Source: a virus
Taxonomy: Duplodnaviria > Caudoviricetes
DNA length: 64,000 nucleotides
Virus record (IMG/VR): IMGVR_UViG_3300034127_000005
Span: 1-64,000 of that record
Direction: 5' to 3' (one strand)
The position numbers and the translations under genes are program-made. The notes under the pieces are model-generated. The model was not told the origin of the DNA and searched no databases. It was given only the letters and a program-made list of their open reading frames with translations. Positions 32,188 to 63,588 of this stretch are shown one piece after another. Positions within the stretch are counted from its first letter, which is position 1. Each line of letters starts with the position of its first letter.

Positions 32188-32261
32188 TGCCGGATAGTTC
32201 AAAAGTAGAACGCAGAGCTGATAACTCTAAAACGAAGGAGCGTTACCTTCTCTGGCGACCA
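32188..32261 (+). tRNA. tRNA-Ile(GAT)
   Basis: loop CTGATAA; atypical T-loop AGCGTTA. Confidence 0.82.
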
Positions 32262-42109: not shown

Positions 42110-43396
42110 ATGACACGTCTAACCGACATCATCGAAATTCAGATCAGCCGTGAAACATCTGCGGTTGCTCAAACGAACTTCAACGTACCAGCCTTTATCT
42201 CTGCCCACACAAACTTCACCGAGCGTGCTCGTGTATATAGTTCGCTGTTGGCAGTATCTGATGACTTCGCAAGCACAGACACTGCATACATTGCAGCTTC
42301 TAAGTTCTTCGGTCAGGCGATTAAGCCAGCAAACATCGTAATCGGTCGTCGTCAGATTCCCGGTGCAACTGTTAACGTTTTGACGGTAGCAGTAAGTACA
42401 CCTTACACACTGACAGTAAATGGTGTGACAGTTACTTACGTATCTCAAGCATTGGACACAGCAATCCTAATTGCTGCTGGACTCAAGACAGCCTACGAAG
42501 TTACTCCAATTCCCGGCGTTGTTCTCGTGGACAACCTTGATGGTACTTTGACATTTACATCTACTGTAGATTGGTCTTTGAAAGTATCTGCCAACCTGAA
42601 CAAAGCTAACGCTCCAGCAACTGAAACTTGGTCTACCTCGGTATCCGAAGTTCAGGACGAAAACGACACTTGGTATGCTCTGACTATCGAATCCCACAAC
42701 GAACTGGATGTATTGGAAGTTGCTGGTGTAATCGAAGCCAAGAAGAAAATCTTCGGTACTTCTTCTGCTACTGCTGCAATCAAGACAACTGGGGATACTG
42801 ACGTATTCGCTAAGTTGCAAGCACTTGGATACCAACGTACCTTCGGTCTGTTCTCTGCGACTGCTGATACAGAATTCCCAGAATGTGCTTGGATTGGATA
42901 CCAGCTACAAGAACAACCGGGTTCCAACACATGGGCTTACAAAGCTCTCTCTGGTGTTACAGTTTCTAAACTGTCGGACACTGAAGCTACTAACATCAAA
43001 GCCAAGGCAGGAAACACCTACGAATCTGTAGGCGGGCAATCCGTTACTGTCGGTGGTAAGATGTTCGGTGGAGAATGGATCGACGTAATGGTCTTCGTAG
43101 ACTGGCTGGAAGCACGTATGACAGAACGTCTGTGGTTCCGTATGGCGAACAGCAAGAAAATCCCTTACACCGCTGCGGGTGCAACTATCATCGAATCCGA
43201 AATCAGAGCCCAGCTCAATGACGGTATTCGTGTTGGTGGTTTGTCTGATAGCCCAAGCCCAGTAGTTCGAGTTCCAGACGTACTGTCTATTGCTCCTAAC
43301 CTGCGTGCTCAACGTATCTTCGAAGGAATTGAATTCGAAGCTCGCCTAGCCGGTGCTATTCACTTCGTTAAAATCCGTGGAACTGTTACCGTTTAA
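42110..43396 (+). CDS. tail sheath protein (DUF3383-like)
   Basis: PGSNTWAYKAL.GV, WIDV...DWL, KIPYT..G, LAGAIH.V.I.G. Confidence 0.92.
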   Translation: MTRLTDIIEIQISRETSAVAQTNFNVPAFISAHTNFTERARVYSSLLAVSDDFASTDTAYIAASKFFGQAIKPANIVIGRRQIPGATVNVLTVAVSTPYTLTVNGVTVTYVSQALDTAILIAAGLKTAYEVTPIPGVVLVDNLDGTLTFTSTVDWSLKVSANLNKANAPATETWSTSVSEVQDENDTWYALTIESHNELDVLEVAGVIEAKKKIFGTSSATAAIKTTGDTDVFAKLQALGYQRTFGLFSATADTEFPECAWIGYQLQEQPGSNTWAYKALSGVTVSKLSDTEATNIKAKAGNTYESVGGQSVTVGGKMFGGEWIDVMVFVDWLEARMTERLWFRMANSKKIPYTAAGATIIESEIRAQLNDGIRVGGLSDSPSPVVRVPDVLSIAPNLRAQRIFEGIEFEARLAGAIHFVKIRGTVTV

Positions 43397-43427
43397 TTAC
43401 GGTGCAGTCCCCTACAAGGAGACTTAA

Positions 43428-62022: not shown

Positions 62023-62492
62023 GCATTGTCAAAGCAGGTACTAAGGTTGTAGTTCTGGACAGCCACGTAGGCTTCTTCGTTCCGGGCCAGATTGTAACCT
62101 CACTGGGTAGTGTATGTGAATACGACGGTGGGCATGAGTTTACCGGCACTGCTCGTGACTACCCATATGATGAGATTATCCAATGCCTTGAGACAGAGGA
62201 TTTCAACGTGATTGGGAACCTCACACGTGAGATTCTTGAAGGGGCGAGCTGGCGTATCTTACCATTAGATGCTCTGCCAGAAGATAAGTTTGTTGCGGAT
62301 ATGGTGTTTAAATCGCTTGACACCAATATGTTTCCGGGCCATACTGTCGCTCATGGTTACATCTTCAACGACAGTCGTGGTGTGTTCTGCGATGGCGATC
62401 CTGTCCGTACATCGTCTATTGCACGGATGTTTAGTGTAGAAGGCACAGACTACATCGAAACACGCAACACGATCTACAAATTGCTGAAATAG
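62019..62492 (+). CDS. hypothetical protein
   Basis: G.IFNDSRG.F.DG..VRTS...ETRNTIY C-terminal domain. Confidence 0.75.
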   Translation: MSIVKAGTKVVVLDSHVGFFVPGQIVTSLGSVCEYDGGHEFTGTARDYPYDEIIQCLETEDFNVIGNLTREILEGASWRILPLDALPEDKFVADMVFKSLDTNMFPGHTVAHGYIFNDSRGVFCDGDPVRTSSIARMFSVEGTDYIETRNTIYKLLK

Positions 62493-62495
62493 TGG

Positions 62496-62523
62496 TTGAC
62501 AGCAGGTGAAAGCCTGCTACAAT
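62496..62523 (+). promoter_or_regulatory. sigma70 promoter with a palindromic spacer
   Basis: TTGACA-16-TACAAT; AGCAGG-TGAAAG-CCTGCT. Confidence 0.8.
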
Positions 62524-62556
62524 GACCACATCAACGAATACAAAGGAGGATTCAAA

Positions 62557-63171
62557 GTGACTCAAATTTCTATTACTCGGGCCTTGGCTCAGGTTAAATC
62601 GCTGAACGATCGTATCGCTCGTGGCAGCAACGCAAACTTCATCACTACGCTGACAGGCGGCAAGCACGGTACTGGCGTGAGCGAGCAGGAAGCTGCTGCA
62701 ATCATGGTATCGAACCTGCAATCCGTACAAGGTCTGATCGCACAGCGAACTGCACTGAAGTCGGCTATCGTCAAGAGCAACGCTCTGGCTACCGTTTCGA
62801 TCAACGAAGTTGTTATGACTGTCGCTGAAGCCATCGAGCGTAAGGGTTCCATTCAGTTGGAACAAGTGCTTCTGCAAAACTTGCGACAGCAACTGGCTGC
62901 TGCAACCCAACAAGTTGAACGGACCAACGTCCAAGTAAACCAACGACTGGATCAACTGATTCAGACTACTGTCGGAAAAGACCGCAAGGTTGATGAAGCT
63001 GAAGTAGCTGCCATCCGTGACCCATTCCTGAAGTCCAACGAAGCCAAGCTTCTGGACTCCAACAAGCTTCAAGGTGTGATCGACAAGCTTCAAGCAAGCA
63101 TCGAAGGCTTCCTTCTGGAAGTTGACTACGCTCTGTCGGAAGTGAACGCCACTACTAAAATTACCCTGTAA
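62557..63171 (+). CDS. coiled-coil protein (DIP1984-like, tentative)
   Basis: AAAGGAGG then GTG start; ITRAL..K.L..RI, AI..SNA, MTVAEAIE.K, VD..LSE.NATT.I; highly biased codons. Confidence 0.8.
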   Translation: MTQISITRALAQVKSLNDRIARGSNANFITTLTGGKHGTGVSEQEAAAIMVSNLQSVQGLIAQRTALKSAIVKSNALATVSINEVVMTVAEAIERKGSIQLEQVLLQNLRQQLAAATQQVERTNVQVNQRLDQLIQTTVGKDRKVDEAEVAAIRDPFLKSNEAKLLDSNKLQGVIDKLQASIEGFLLEVDYALSEVNATTKITL

Positions 63172-63179
63172 CAAGGGTA

Positions 63180-63474
63180 TTCTGTAGCGATGAGTTGTCT
63201 AAATTCAGTGGGGCACCAGCCATACGCCCTAAGTATGGCTACCATAATTGGATAATTAAACGACATTCTCAGTCTTTTATACGGGGTTCAAATCCCCGAT
63301 AAGCTTGCATTGACTACGAACAAAGTTTAACTACTAAAGATTATGGCTTAAGGCTCAACAATGAACCTTTTAAATATGCAACAACGAAAGCCGAAAGATC
63401 ATCGAATCTTGGATTATGGTTTCGTGGAGTTCACTGAGCATCCCTAATGACGCCCCAAGCTGTCGTCTACAGAA
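63180..63474 (+). ncRNA. ~295-nt structured RNA with a T-arm and heptamer array
   Basis: TTCTGTAG/CTACAGAA, TGGGGC/GCCCCA end pairing; AGCCATAC/GTATGGCT; CGGGG-TTCAAAT-CCCCG; no credible ORF; followed by a terminator. Confidence 0.7.
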
Positions 63475-63480
63475 GCACTT

Positions 63481-63503
63481 AGCCCGCCATGAGCGGGCTT
63501 TTT
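63481..63503 (+). terminator. intrinsic terminator
   Basis: AGCCCGC-CATGA-GCGGGCT-TTTT. Confidence 0.85.
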
Positions 63504-63530
63504 GCTGCCTAAAATATGTGAATATGGCAC

Positions 63531-63558
63531 TTGACACGCACTGGAAACGGTGTAGAAT
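63531..63558 (+). promoter_or_regulatory. sigma70 promoter
   Basis: TTGACA-16-TAGAAT. Confidence 0.8.
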
Positions 63559-63588
63559 TGCCGAATCAACCAAACACGGAGAAACAAA

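What the first reader, a model, noticed from the sequence alone, without database searches (positions are those of the whole stretch)
62496..63504. Candidate two-component system: coiled-coil protein plus a co-transcribed ~295-nt structured RNA
Seen: one self-contained unit made of a TTGACA-16-TACAAT promoter, a strong RBS, a 204-aa helical protein with strongly biased codons, ~300 nt with no credible ORF, and then an intrinsic terminator. The non-coding part pairs end to end (TTCTGTAG-CGA 63180 with TCG-T-CTACAGAA 63474; CAG-TGGGGC with GCCCCA-AG-CTG). It also contains an 8-bp hairpin, a perfect T-arm and a heptamer array. The protein has an internal repeat (SITRAL..SNA / TVAEAI..VNATT) like the uncharacterised DIP1984-type coiled-coil proteins; this is recalled similarity, not searched. 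In a genome where most genes overlap, 300 nt of folded sequence before the terminator is unlikely to be filler. Inference: an oligomeric protein that binds its cognate RNA as a ribonucleoprotein of unknown function.
Basis: partly seen in the sequence, partly recalled or inferred. Interest (0 to 1): 0.92.

Follow-up and report, generated by a model that had tools for sequence, protein, structure and literature searches.

The report
Phage helical protein with knotted heptad-repeat RNA
Right behind a small helical-protein gene this phage encodes a real, about 300-base, doubly knotted non-coding RNA carrying a row of 7-base repeats. The same uncatalogued gene-plus-RNA pair recurs in phage T5, hundreds of other large phages and some Bacillus-type chromosomes, so it is probably an undescribed protein-RNA particle.

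Summary
One promoter (62496-62523), a 204-aa helical-protein gene (62557-63171), a 296-nt ORF-free RNA (63180-63475) and an intrinsic terminator (63481-63504) form one unit.

The RNA fold is backed by covariation:
- a 13-bp closing stem;
- a P2/P5 pseudoknot;
- a 5' H-type pseudoknot;
- a 7-nt periodic A-rich array, unit AAAGnYn.

Of the full proposed structure, 92.7% of cells pair, against 76.6% when partners are shuffled and about 42% when they are slid.

An RNA core profile finds this RNA directly downstream of the protein gene, on the same strand, in 102 of 107 phage loci and 77 of 80 bacterial loci. The phage loci include T5, Bacillus, Vibrio, Lactococcus and jumbo phages. In the two bacterial genomes examined the pair stands alone in ordinary chromosome.

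Nothing in Rfam, Pfam, NCBIfam or PADLOC matches. The protein resembles only PDB 3KDQ, of unknown function, and is predicted to self-associate.

Physical binding of protein and RNA is inferred, not shown. The function is unknown. This scan has already reported the same module from at least six other genomes. The closest analogues are VIPR, GOLLD/ROOL and Ro/Y RNA, and the module meets the membership test of none of them.

The parts
62496..62523 (+). sigma-70-type promoter TTGACA-16-TACAAT with an extended -10 TG
   Evidence: 11 of 12 matches. The equivalent position is annotated as a promoter in phage KIL2.
62557..63171 (+). gene for the 204-aa helical, self-associating protein (phrog_1491; T5 ORF080 family; 3KDQ-like fold). 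GTG start behind AAGGAGG.
   Evidence: phrog_1491, E 5.5e-65; no Pfam or NCBIfam family; AF2 pLDDT 84.6; 3KDQ Z 11.5; self-association score 0.56 against a best control of 0.01; 3599 cluster representatives.
63180..63192 (+). P1, 5' strand of the closing stem
   Evidence: 13 pairs, 8 with compensatory changes, 98.9% paired. Family-wide partner-swap test.
63194..63199 (+). P2, 5' strand (GUUGUC). It pairs with 63446-63451 and crosses P5, which makes a pseudoknot.
   Evidence: 6 pairs, 4 compensatory, 97.6% paired; a run of >= 6 bp in 90% of matched against 16% of swapped partners.
63211..63240 (+). 5' H-type pseudoknot: S1 GGGC 63211-14 / GCCC 63226-29; S2 (A)GCCAUAC 63218-25 / GUAUGGC(U) 63233-40
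   Evidence: all 11 pairs show compensatory changes. The same topology is read in T5, L063 and L011.
63241..63310 (+). variable domain. Here it holds an anticodon-arm-like hairpin and a canonical T-arm (63282-63298).
   Evidence: identity is only 0.32-0.53; a T-arm in 12 of 154 RNAs; a whole tRNA-Thr in L070 and a YrlA-like tRNA mimic in L011.
63311..63407 (+). 7-nt periodic A-rich array (about 13 units, AAAGnYn), including the hairpin AAGG 63350-53 / CCUU 63366-69
   Evidence: A autocorrelation 0.265 at lag 7 and 0.216 at lag 14, against about 0 in shuffles, over 126 arrays; phases 0-3 and 5 are conserved, phases 4 and 6 are variable.
63408..63459 (+). 3' core: P5 CUUGG 63408-12 / CCAAG 63455-59; P6 GGUU 63418-21 / AUCC 63440-43; P2 3' strand AAUGAC 63446-51
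   Evidence: on a sequence-only alignment of 76 unique phage RNAs, P5 is 99.7% canonical against 69.4% with swapped partners, with up to 6 pair types per position. One search gives the same helices in the Pseudomonas-phage clade.
63461..63474 (+). P1, 3' strand (UGUCGU-C-UACAGAA), preceded by the near-invariant GCUG
   Evidence: A soil RNA-library contig of a relative ends at 63473 and runs straight into Illumina adapter.
63481..63504 (+). intrinsic terminator that closes the unit
   Evidence: A terminator-like element follows the RNA in 45 of 73 phage and 40 of 57 bacterial unique loci.

Best explanation
This is a conserved two-part module: a gene for a roughly 205-aa helical, self-associating protein, co-transcribed with a roughly 300-nt non-coding RNA.

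Shown:
- The RNA is real, strand-specific and intricately folded. It has a closing stem P1, a P2/P5 pseudoknotted core, a 5' H-type pseudoknot, a free-evolving variable domain and a 7-nt periodic AAAGnYn array.
- The RNA is genetically locked to this protein family in phages of Gram-negative and Gram-positive hosts, and in solitary chromosomal copies in Bacillota.

Inferred:
- The two form a ribonucleoprotein. Protein dimers or oligomers dock on the periodic heptads, roughly one binding unit per 7 nt, while the knotted 5' and 3' domains clamp the array into a closed scaffold.
- The variable domain, tRNA-like in several lineages, is an exchangeable adaptor.
- In phages the particle probably acts early in infection on host or phage RNA or translation components, given that it sits in tRNA islands. 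The biochemical activity is unknown.
For: Linkage:
- The RNA core is found directly downstream on the same strand in 102 of 107 phage loci and 77 of 80 bacterial loci, with no hit elsewhere or on the other strand.
- The loci the profile 'missed' still show P1, P2 and P5 by eye.
- In B. safensis and Lysinibacillus the pair is the only conserved unit, sitting in ordinary chromosomal context.

One transcript:
- There is a single promoter and a single terminator.
- An RNA-library contig of a relative spans the 3' part of the CDS and the RNA.

Fold:
- 92.7% of cells pair, against 76.6% shuffled and about 42% slid; 28 of 45 pairs show compensatory changes.
- P5 is 99.7% canonical against 69.4% with swapped partners.
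- P1 duplex energy is -18.3 kcal/mol for matched strands against -9.5 for swapped.
- P2 forms a run of >= 6 bp in 90% of matched against 16% of swapped partners.
- By my tally of the pair table, roughly 76 G-U cells, including the invariant G63192-U63461, fit only the + strand RNA.

Periodic platform:
- Peaks at lag 7 and lag 14 in 126 arrays.
- The array is as conserved as the helices, 0.62-0.78 identity.

Protein self-association:
- ipSAE 0.56, best of 3 controls 0.01.
- That mark was reached by 20 of 30 proteins solved as pairs of one chain and by 1 of 23 proteins solved as single chains.
- The runs agree in at least 86% of contacts; partner pLDDT is at least 81.
- Four copies and my own alignment were used, unlike the calibration.

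Precedent: phage proteins that polymerise on a periodic repeat RNA exist, namely VIPR (bioRxiv 10.64898/2026.04.26.720920 and 10.64898/2026.04.26.720927).
Against: - There is no direct evidence that the protein touches the RNA.
- The protein is not basic (pI 7.95; family median 6.4).
- It has no recognised RNA-binding fold. Its only clear structural relative, 3KDQ, has no known function.
- An RNA this ornate could work on its own, as the literature proposes for GOLLD and ROOL.
- The tRNA neighbourhood holds for phages (33 of 73 loci) but not for bacterial copies (5 of 57). It may only reflect where accessory genes sit.
- The RNA-seq evidence is from contigs of a relative in a metatranscriptome, so DNA carry-over cannot be excluded.
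Confidence: 0.5

Rival explanations
1. RNA-centred machine. The RNA acts on its own, as a scaffold, multimeric assembly, decoy or ribozyme, in the manner proposed for ROOL and GOLLD. The upstream protein is a functionally linked helper (chaperone, effector or regulator) that does not form a stable particle with it.
For: - The fold is elaborate, with two pseudoknots and invariant junction nucleotides (AAAUC, GCUG, and a conserved G-U at the inner end of P1).
- It shares genomic ecology with ROOL and GOLLD: phages, tRNA islands, and tRNAs nested in a variable region.
- The protein is near-neutral and lacks an RNA-binding fold.
Against: - Near-absolute one-to-one linkage and co-transcription, even in solitary chromosomal copies.
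- The 7-nt periodic single-stranded array looks like a platform for repeated protein units.
- No ribozyme or known RNA family matches.
Confidence: 0.2
2. Antagonistic pair of the toxin-antitoxin, defence or counter-defence kind. The RNA neutralises or licenses the protein, as in type III systems. Bacterial copies would be small selfish or immune islands, and phage copies would be weapons or antidotes.
For: - The two-component module stands alone in unrelated chromosomal contexts, next to an IS element in Lysinibacillus.
- The same module is carried by many lytic phages.
- It has a repeat-bearing RNA and one small protein.
Against: - There is no credible PADLOC match.
- The protein is helical, not a ToxN/AbiQ-type nuclease.
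- The repeats are 7 nt inside one folded RNA, not tandem units of about 36 nt upstream of the gene.
- The gene order and the single terminator give no excess of RNA over protein.
- Only 2 of the 80 bacterial loci had their surroundings examined; both lie in ordinary chromosomal context.
Confidence: 0.13
3. Cis-acting 3' UTR. The structure only stabilises or autoregulates the mRNA of the upstream gene.
For: - It lies on the same transcript, starts within a few bases of the stop codon, and is followed by a terminator.
Against: - Three hundred nucleotides with two covarying pseudoknots and a periodic array, conserved from Lactococcus phages to T5, is far more than a stabiliser needs.
- Parts of the RNA are more conserved than the coding sequence.
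- In several loci tRNAs are nested in it or follow it directly, so processing would detach it from the mRNA.
Confidence: 0.07
4. It is not an RNA: either a hidden small protein gene or a DNA-level element (origin, iterons, packaging site).
For: - A 23-codon ATG frame (63376-63447) is also open in phage Milchi.
- AT-rich periodic repeats can be DNA-binding sites.
Against: - The frame is broken in close relatives (ACG UAA in L017 and L019).
- The longest + strand ORFs are short and not conserved.
- Helices covary with many G-U pairs that would be A-C mismatches on the other strand.
- All profile hits are on the gene's strand.
Confidence: 0.02

Closest known systems
VIPR systems (Vipr protein + vrRNA), bioRxiv 10.64898/2026.04.26.720920 and 10.64898/2026.04.26.720927
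   Same: - Mostly phage- and prophage-borne, with some chromosomal copies.
- One small protein gene beside a non-coding RNA that has a short-period tandem array (fixed bases alternating with variable bases), followed by a conserved pseudoknotted 3' part.
- In VIPR the protein polymerises along the repeats.
   Different: - Vipr is a RAMP/RRM-fold protein; this protein is an all-helical 3KDQ-like one.
- vrRNAs are about 100 nt with 9-16 YNNGG (5-nt) units, often several per locus. This is one RNA of about 300 nt with AAAGnYn (7-nt) units enclosed by P1, P2 and P5.
- VIPR's NN positions are hypervariable; this array is as conserved as the helices.
- No target or DNA-guiding role is shown here.
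ROOL (RF03087) and GOLLD (RF01998) large ornate RNAs
   Same: - Large, multi-pseudoknotted RNAs of unknown function.
- Found in phages and prophages, often near tRNA islands.
- tRNAs are sometimes embedded in a variable linker. Here a tRNA-Thr is nested in L070, and co-oriented tRNAs flank 33 of 73 phage loci.
   Different: - There is no match to either Rfam model.
- The size is about 300 nt, against about 580-800 nt.
- This RNA has a dedicated, always-adjacent protein gene and a heptad array. No protein partner is known for ROOL.
Ro60/Rsr with Y RNA (YrlA)
   Same: - A protein gene is followed by a non-coding RNA whose 5' and 3' ends pair in a long stem.
- Its internal module mimics tRNA. L011's variable domain hits Rfam YrlA at 44.5 bits (E 9e-7), and the window has a canonical T-arm.
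   Different: - The partner protein is not a TROVE/vWA Ro protein.
- The YrlA score is below the gathering score of 69, and the match is confined to one lineage.
- The RNA is three times larger, with pseudoknots and a repeat array that Y RNAs lack.
TRAP on the trp leader and HutP on hut mRNA (own knowledge)
   Same: An oligomeric protein reads a row of short, evenly spaced RNA motifs.
   Different: - Those are beta-rich ring proteins binding triplets in a 5' leader to control attenuation.
- This is a helical protein, a 7-nt unit, and a 3'-located, closed, knotted RNA.
PDB 3KDQ, function-unknown protein of Corynebacterium diphtheriae
   Same: - It is the only clear structural relative: VIA-align Z 11.5 with 150 of 152 residues aligned, next best 7.8.
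- Foldseek probability 1.00.
- Profile E-value 0.013.
   Different: - It has about 150 residues against about 205, and 19% identity.
- No NCBIfam or Pfam family links the two.
- Whether that family has a partner RNA was not tested.

Membership tests
Any Rfam 15 family | covariance-model match at or near the gathering score | tested here: not met
   Searches (window; E up to 10 on 63100-63560; 15 loci) gave only terminator-like chance hits, tRNAs, and a sub-threshold YrlA hit in L011.
DIP1984 family (NCBIfam) / 3KDQ-like proteins | match to the NCBIfam family model | tested here: not met
   no such model matched at E <= 1.
DIP1984 family (NCBIfam) / 3KDQ-like proteins | shared fold with the solved C. 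diphtheriae protein | tested here: met
   (Z 11.5, 150 of 152 residues aligned). I could not verify that 3KDQ is the product of locus DIP1984.
VIPR | RAMP (RRM core, G-loop, thumb) Vipr protein | tested here: not met
   The AF2 model is helical with a small beta tip. No RAMP appears among the fold matches.
VIPR | vrRNA of YNNGG pentamer repeats with hypervariable NN | tested here: not met
   The period is 7, unit AAAGnYn. Array identity within clades is 0.72-0.78.
VIPR | protein-RNA co-purification and noncontiguous target pairing | not testable with these tools
   This needs pull-down and binding assays.
ROOL / GOLLD | match to RF03087 or RF01998 | tested here: not met
ROOL / GOLLD | phage or prophage location near tRNA islands, with tRNAs nested in a variable region | tested here: met
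   (33 of 73 phage loci have co-oriented tRNAs; nested tRNAs in L070 and L067). This does not hold for bacterial copies (5 of 57).
Ro/Y RNA (YrlA) | adjacent Ro60/Rsr (TROVE) gene | tested here: not met
   The adjacent protein has no Pfam family and a helical fold.
Ro/Y RNA (YrlA) | tRNA-like module plus an end-to-end stem | tested here: inconclusive
   P1 is universal. A T-arm is present in 12 of 154 RNAs. The YrlA model scores 44.5 bits, below 69, in L011 only.
Type III toxin-antitoxin (ToxIN, CptIN, TenpIN) | tandem repeats of about 34-45 nt upstream of a ToxN/AbiQ-type endoribonuclease, separated by a terminator | tested here: not met
   The RNA lies downstream, its repeats are 7 nt, and the protein is helical. 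PADLOC gave nothing credible.
tmRNA / RNase P RNA | ARAGORN or Rfam detection; acceptor-CCA end (tmRNA) or conserved P4 core (RNase P) | tested here: not met
   Only the order of the strands P1-P2-...-P2'-P5'-P1' recalls the P1/P2/P4 topology of RNase P.

The most novel reading that the evidence does not exclude
This is a second, non-RAMP kind of periodic-repeat RNA-protein filament in phages. The helical protein polymerises on the AAAGnYn heptads and presents the two or three less-constrained bases of each unit as a noncontiguous reading head for a nucleic-acid target. That would be convergent with VIPR. The tRNA-like variable domain would recruit tRNA-handling factors.
Probability: 0.06. Interest if true: 0.95.

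Novelty: categorically new. Interest (0 to 1): 0.85.

Why it matters
- If the pair is a particle, it is a widespread ribonucleoprotein that has escaped annotation.
- The protein family has 3599 cluster representatives at 50% identity.
- It occurs in 736 deposited phage genomes, including the model phage T5, and in Bacillus, Lysinibacillus and Brevibacillus chromosomes.
- There is no Rfam family for the RNA and no Pfam family for the protein.
- The RNA is a compact, doubly pseudoknotted fold that displays a protein-sized periodic array. That makes it an attractive structural target.
- Because it is present in T5 and in culturable Bacillus species, its function is directly testable.
- It also explains a recurrent 'empty' gap of 300-500 bp in many phage genome annotations. 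The PHROG label 'tail fiber protein' has no support in the fold or in the genomic context seen here.

Tried and rejected
Hypotheses tested and dropped:
- Small ORF in the RNA (ATG 63376). It is open in Milchi but broken in L017 and L019, so it is rejected.
- Guide-like hypervariability of the array is not seen.
- tmRNA, RNase P, group I introns and known ribozymes: none are detected.

Database searches with no result:
- Rfam at the gathering score and at E <= 10 found no family.
- ARAGORN found no tRNA or tmRNA in the RNA region.
- Pfam, NCBIfam and PADLOC found no family for the protein. The PADLOC rows are weak coiled-coil noise.
- The ESM Atlas returned only unnamed viral clusters; DUF6847 appears on 16% of members of a cluster scoring 0.88, which is a lead only.

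Tests that did not discriminate:
- The shuffle test of P1 with RNAduplex on 100-nt 5' regions (median z -2) and the ungapped 8-mer test. They were replaced by the partner-swap test.
- The unanchored duplex test of P2. It was replaced by the anchored test.

Other limits:
- RNA run X24 laid nothing on the stretch, which proves nothing.
- A full-length covariance model could not be built, because a model of about 300 positions exceeds the calibration limit. nhmmer and descriptor scripts were used instead.
- Seven literature searches found no description of this module. The 7-nt-period cluster in bioRxiv 10.64898/2026.10.21.760802 is a different element, from Patescibacteriota and with an inverted second array.
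Full report
**What is in the window.**
- The stretch is a compact unit on the + strand. A near-consensus promoter lies at 62496-62523 and an intrinsic terminator at 63481-63499 plus its T run; the next promoter starts at 63531.
- AAGGAGG and a GTG at 62557 open a 204-codon frame that ends at 63171.
- The 296 nt from 63180 to 63475 hold no conserved reading frame.
- The window is a large lytic phage assembled from a peat metagenome. It is related to Pseudomonas Otagovirus/Flaumdravirus-type phages and carries a tRNA array at 30.6-33.6 kb.

**The protein.**
- It belongs to phrog_1491 (E 5.5e-65), labelled 'tail fiber protein' there. It has no Pfam or NCBIfam family and no credible PADLOC match.
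- tblastn finds it in 736 phage records, including T5 ORF080, Bacillus phage Bcp1, Vibrio phage Brizo, Ralstonia jumbo phage RsoM2USA, Erwinia phage Deimos-Minion and Lactococcus phage AM2.
- A profile search finds 3599 cluster representatives, nearly all 200-215 aa long.
- AlphaFold2 (pLDDT 84.6) gives long antiparallel helices with a small beta tip built from the N-terminus, residues 79-88 and the C-terminus. Most of the nearly invariant residues lie in or next to those tip segments: S74, N75, A76, T78, V80, T88-A92, S194, N197 and T200.
- The only structural relative that stands out is PDB 3KDQ, a function-unknown C. diphtheriae protein: Z 11.5 with 150 of 152 residues aligned, next best 7.8.
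- Four copies are predicted to associate: ipSAE 0.56 against a best control of 0.01. That mark was reached by 20 of 30 solved one-chain pairs and 1 of 23 single chains. Contacts agree at >= 86% and partner pLDDT is >= 81. The job differed from the calibration in copy number and alignment.
- The protein is not basic: pI 7.95, family median 6.4.

**The RNA is real.**
- Against Milchi and Astolliot the non-coding stretch aligns along its whole length, with blocks more conserved than the coding sequence.
- In fourteen divergent Pseudomonas-phage-clade sequences (alignment A6), the structure I derived was counted by the count of structure pairs. It comprises P1 (13 bp), P2 (6 bp), an H-type pseudoknot S1/S2, a hairpin, P5 (5 bp) and P6 (4 bp).
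- The result is 92.7% of cells paired against 76.6% in shuffles (0 of 500 as high) and about 42% when partners are slid by 1-3 columns. Compensatory changes appear at 28 of 45 pairs. RNAalifold found P1, S1, P5 and P6 independently.
- P2's 5' strand lies outside P5 and its 3' strand inside it, so the core is a second pseudoknot.
- By my tally of the pair table, roughly 76 G-U cells, including an invariant G-U at the inner end of P1, fit only the + strand transcript.
- The single sequence folds better than all 200 dinucleotide shuffles (z = -3.76).

**Family-wide picture.**
- Every annotated homologous locus I opened (T5, PE09, KIL2, RsoM2USA, Bcp1, Brizo, Xoo-sp15, SSE121, Deimos-Minion, AM2) has an unannotated gap of 300-535 nt behind the gene.
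- An iterated nhmmer profile of the RNA core hits directly downstream on the same strand in 102 of 107 loci. The loci it 'missed' still show P1, P2 and P5 by eye.
- On that sequence-only alignment of 76 unique phage RNAs, P5 is 99.7% canonical with up to six pair types per position, against 69.4% when partners are swapped among sequences.
- P1 strands bind their own partner at -18.3 kcal/mol against -9.5 for foreign partners. The own partner is the best of all in 51 of 68 cases.
- P2, anchored next to P1 and P5, forms a run of >= 6 bp in 90% of matched and 16% of swapped combinations.
- In T5 the RNA is AY587007 complement(43064..43414). It has an 18-bp P1 and the same pseudoknot topology.

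**The array.**
- Between the variable domain and P5 lies an A-rich tract with a median length of about 98 nt. Its A content is periodic at 7 nt: autocorrelation 0.265 at lag 7 and 0.216 at lag 14, against about 0 in shuffles, over 126 arrays.
- In the Pseudomonas-phage clade the unit reads A-A-A-G-n-Y-n. Phases 4 and 6 are the least conserved.
- The array as a whole is as conserved as the helices (0.62-0.78 identity). The variable domain is not (0.32-0.53).
- So the array is under constraint and is not a fast-changing guide.

**The variable domain.**
- The window's perfect T-arm is shared only with close kin.
- Canonical T-arms recur there in 12 of 154 unique RNAs from several clades.
- L070 has a complete tRNA-Thr nested in this domain.
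- Erwinia phage Deimos-Minion has a permuted tRNA mimic that hits Rfam YrlA at 44.5 bits, E 9e-7, below the gathering score of 69.

**Context.**
- In phages the module often sits in or beside co-oriented tRNA clusters: 33 of 73 unique loci have one, and in 10 a tRNA starts within 150 nt after P1.
- A scan of one genome per prokaryotic species found 80 loci, mostly Bacillota (Brevibacillus, Paenibacillus, the B. pumilus group, Lysinibacillus, Solibacillus). The RNA lies downstream in 77 of them, with no hit elsewhere or on the other strand.
- In B. safensis and a Lysinibacillus chromosome the pair stands alone among ordinary metabolic genes, with no prophage genes within 10 kb.
- The module is therefore self-sufficient and not phage-specific. 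The tRNA neighbourhood may be circumstantial, since only 5 of 57 bacterial loci have a nearby tRNA.

**Expression.**
- No infection transcriptome exists for this phage.
- In a soil RNA library, contigs of a relative cover the gene and the RNA. One contig runs from the 3' part of the CDS into the RNA, ends at 63473 (one base inside the last P1 pair) and continues into Illumina adapter.
- That is a hint of co-transcription and of a 3' end at the foot of P1. Contigs cannot prove it, and DNA carry-over is possible.

**Interpretation.**
- Shown: a new, deeply conserved, doubly pseudoknotted RNA family, always paired with one protein family.
- Inferred (about 0.5): the two form a particle in which self-associating protein units sit on the heptads.
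- The rivals are an RNA-only machine with a linked helper protein (0.2), an antagonistic toxin/defence-type pair (0.13), a cis-acting UTR (0.07) and a non-RNA reading (0.02).

**Comparison with known systems.**
- The nearest analogue by working logic is VIPR, a phage-borne RAMP protein that polymerises on about 100-nt RNAs of YNNGG repeats capped by a pseudoknotted tail. Every defining feature I could test is not met: fold, period and hypervariability.
- ROOL and GOLLD share the ecology but not the models, the size or the protein partner.
- Ro/Y RNA shares the gene-then-RNA layout, the end stem and, in some lineages, the tRNA mimic. It does not share the protein.
- I found no description of this module in Rfam 15 or in seven full-text searches.
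- The same module has already been reported by this scan from at least six other genomes. A later check of another note kept the observation and dismissed its bold reading, so I keep the bold reading here at low odds.

Noticed in passing
L011:2247-2310 (Erwinia phage vB_EamM_Deimos-Minion, NC_041972.1): Inside the variable domain of this phage's copy of the RNA lies a permuted tRNA-like element (T-arm, capped acceptor-like hairpin, D-arm). It hits Rfam YrlA at 44.5 bits, E 9e-7, below the gathering score of 69.
   Followed up: partly
L070:1938-2014 and L067:1913-1987 (IMG/VR contigs): Complete tRNA genes (tRNA-Thr; one of undetermined identity) are nested between the 5' pseudoknot and the heptad array. 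Processing would then yield a two-piece RNA held together by P1 and P2.
   Followed up: partly
L107:2219-2347 (Paenibacillus xylaniclasticus): A skipping-rope RNA (RF02924, 54.1 bits, above the gathering score) lies immediately downstream of the module in this bacterial genome.
   Followed up: no
window 32188-32258: Rfam calls a tRNA (46 bits) in the tRNA array that ARAGORN did not list, so the array has at least 20 tRNA genes.
   Followed up: no
window 63160-63179: A 6-bp hairpin (UACCCU/AGGGUA) encloses the stop codon of the protein gene, right before P1. It could mark a processing site or a pause. It has no T run on the + strand.
   Followed up: no
L001:2522-3114 (Pseudomonas phage Milchi, PQ464597.1): The homologous gene is annotated as two CDS (a 41-aa 'hypothetical protein' plus a 'tail fiber protein'), although tblastn aligns it to the full 204 aa in one piece. 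The 'tail fiber' name of phrog_1491 has no support in the fold or context seen here.
   Followed up: partly
window 62431-63174, minus strand: A 247-aa open frame runs antisense to the protein gene. It has no family support and is most likely a by-product of the codon bias of the + strand gene.
   Followed up: no
L188:11043-12235 (Lysinibacillus sp. chromosome CP154840.1): An IS3-type transposase pair sits directly downstream of the solitary chromosomal module. This hints that the module may move as or with mobile DNA.
   Followed up: no
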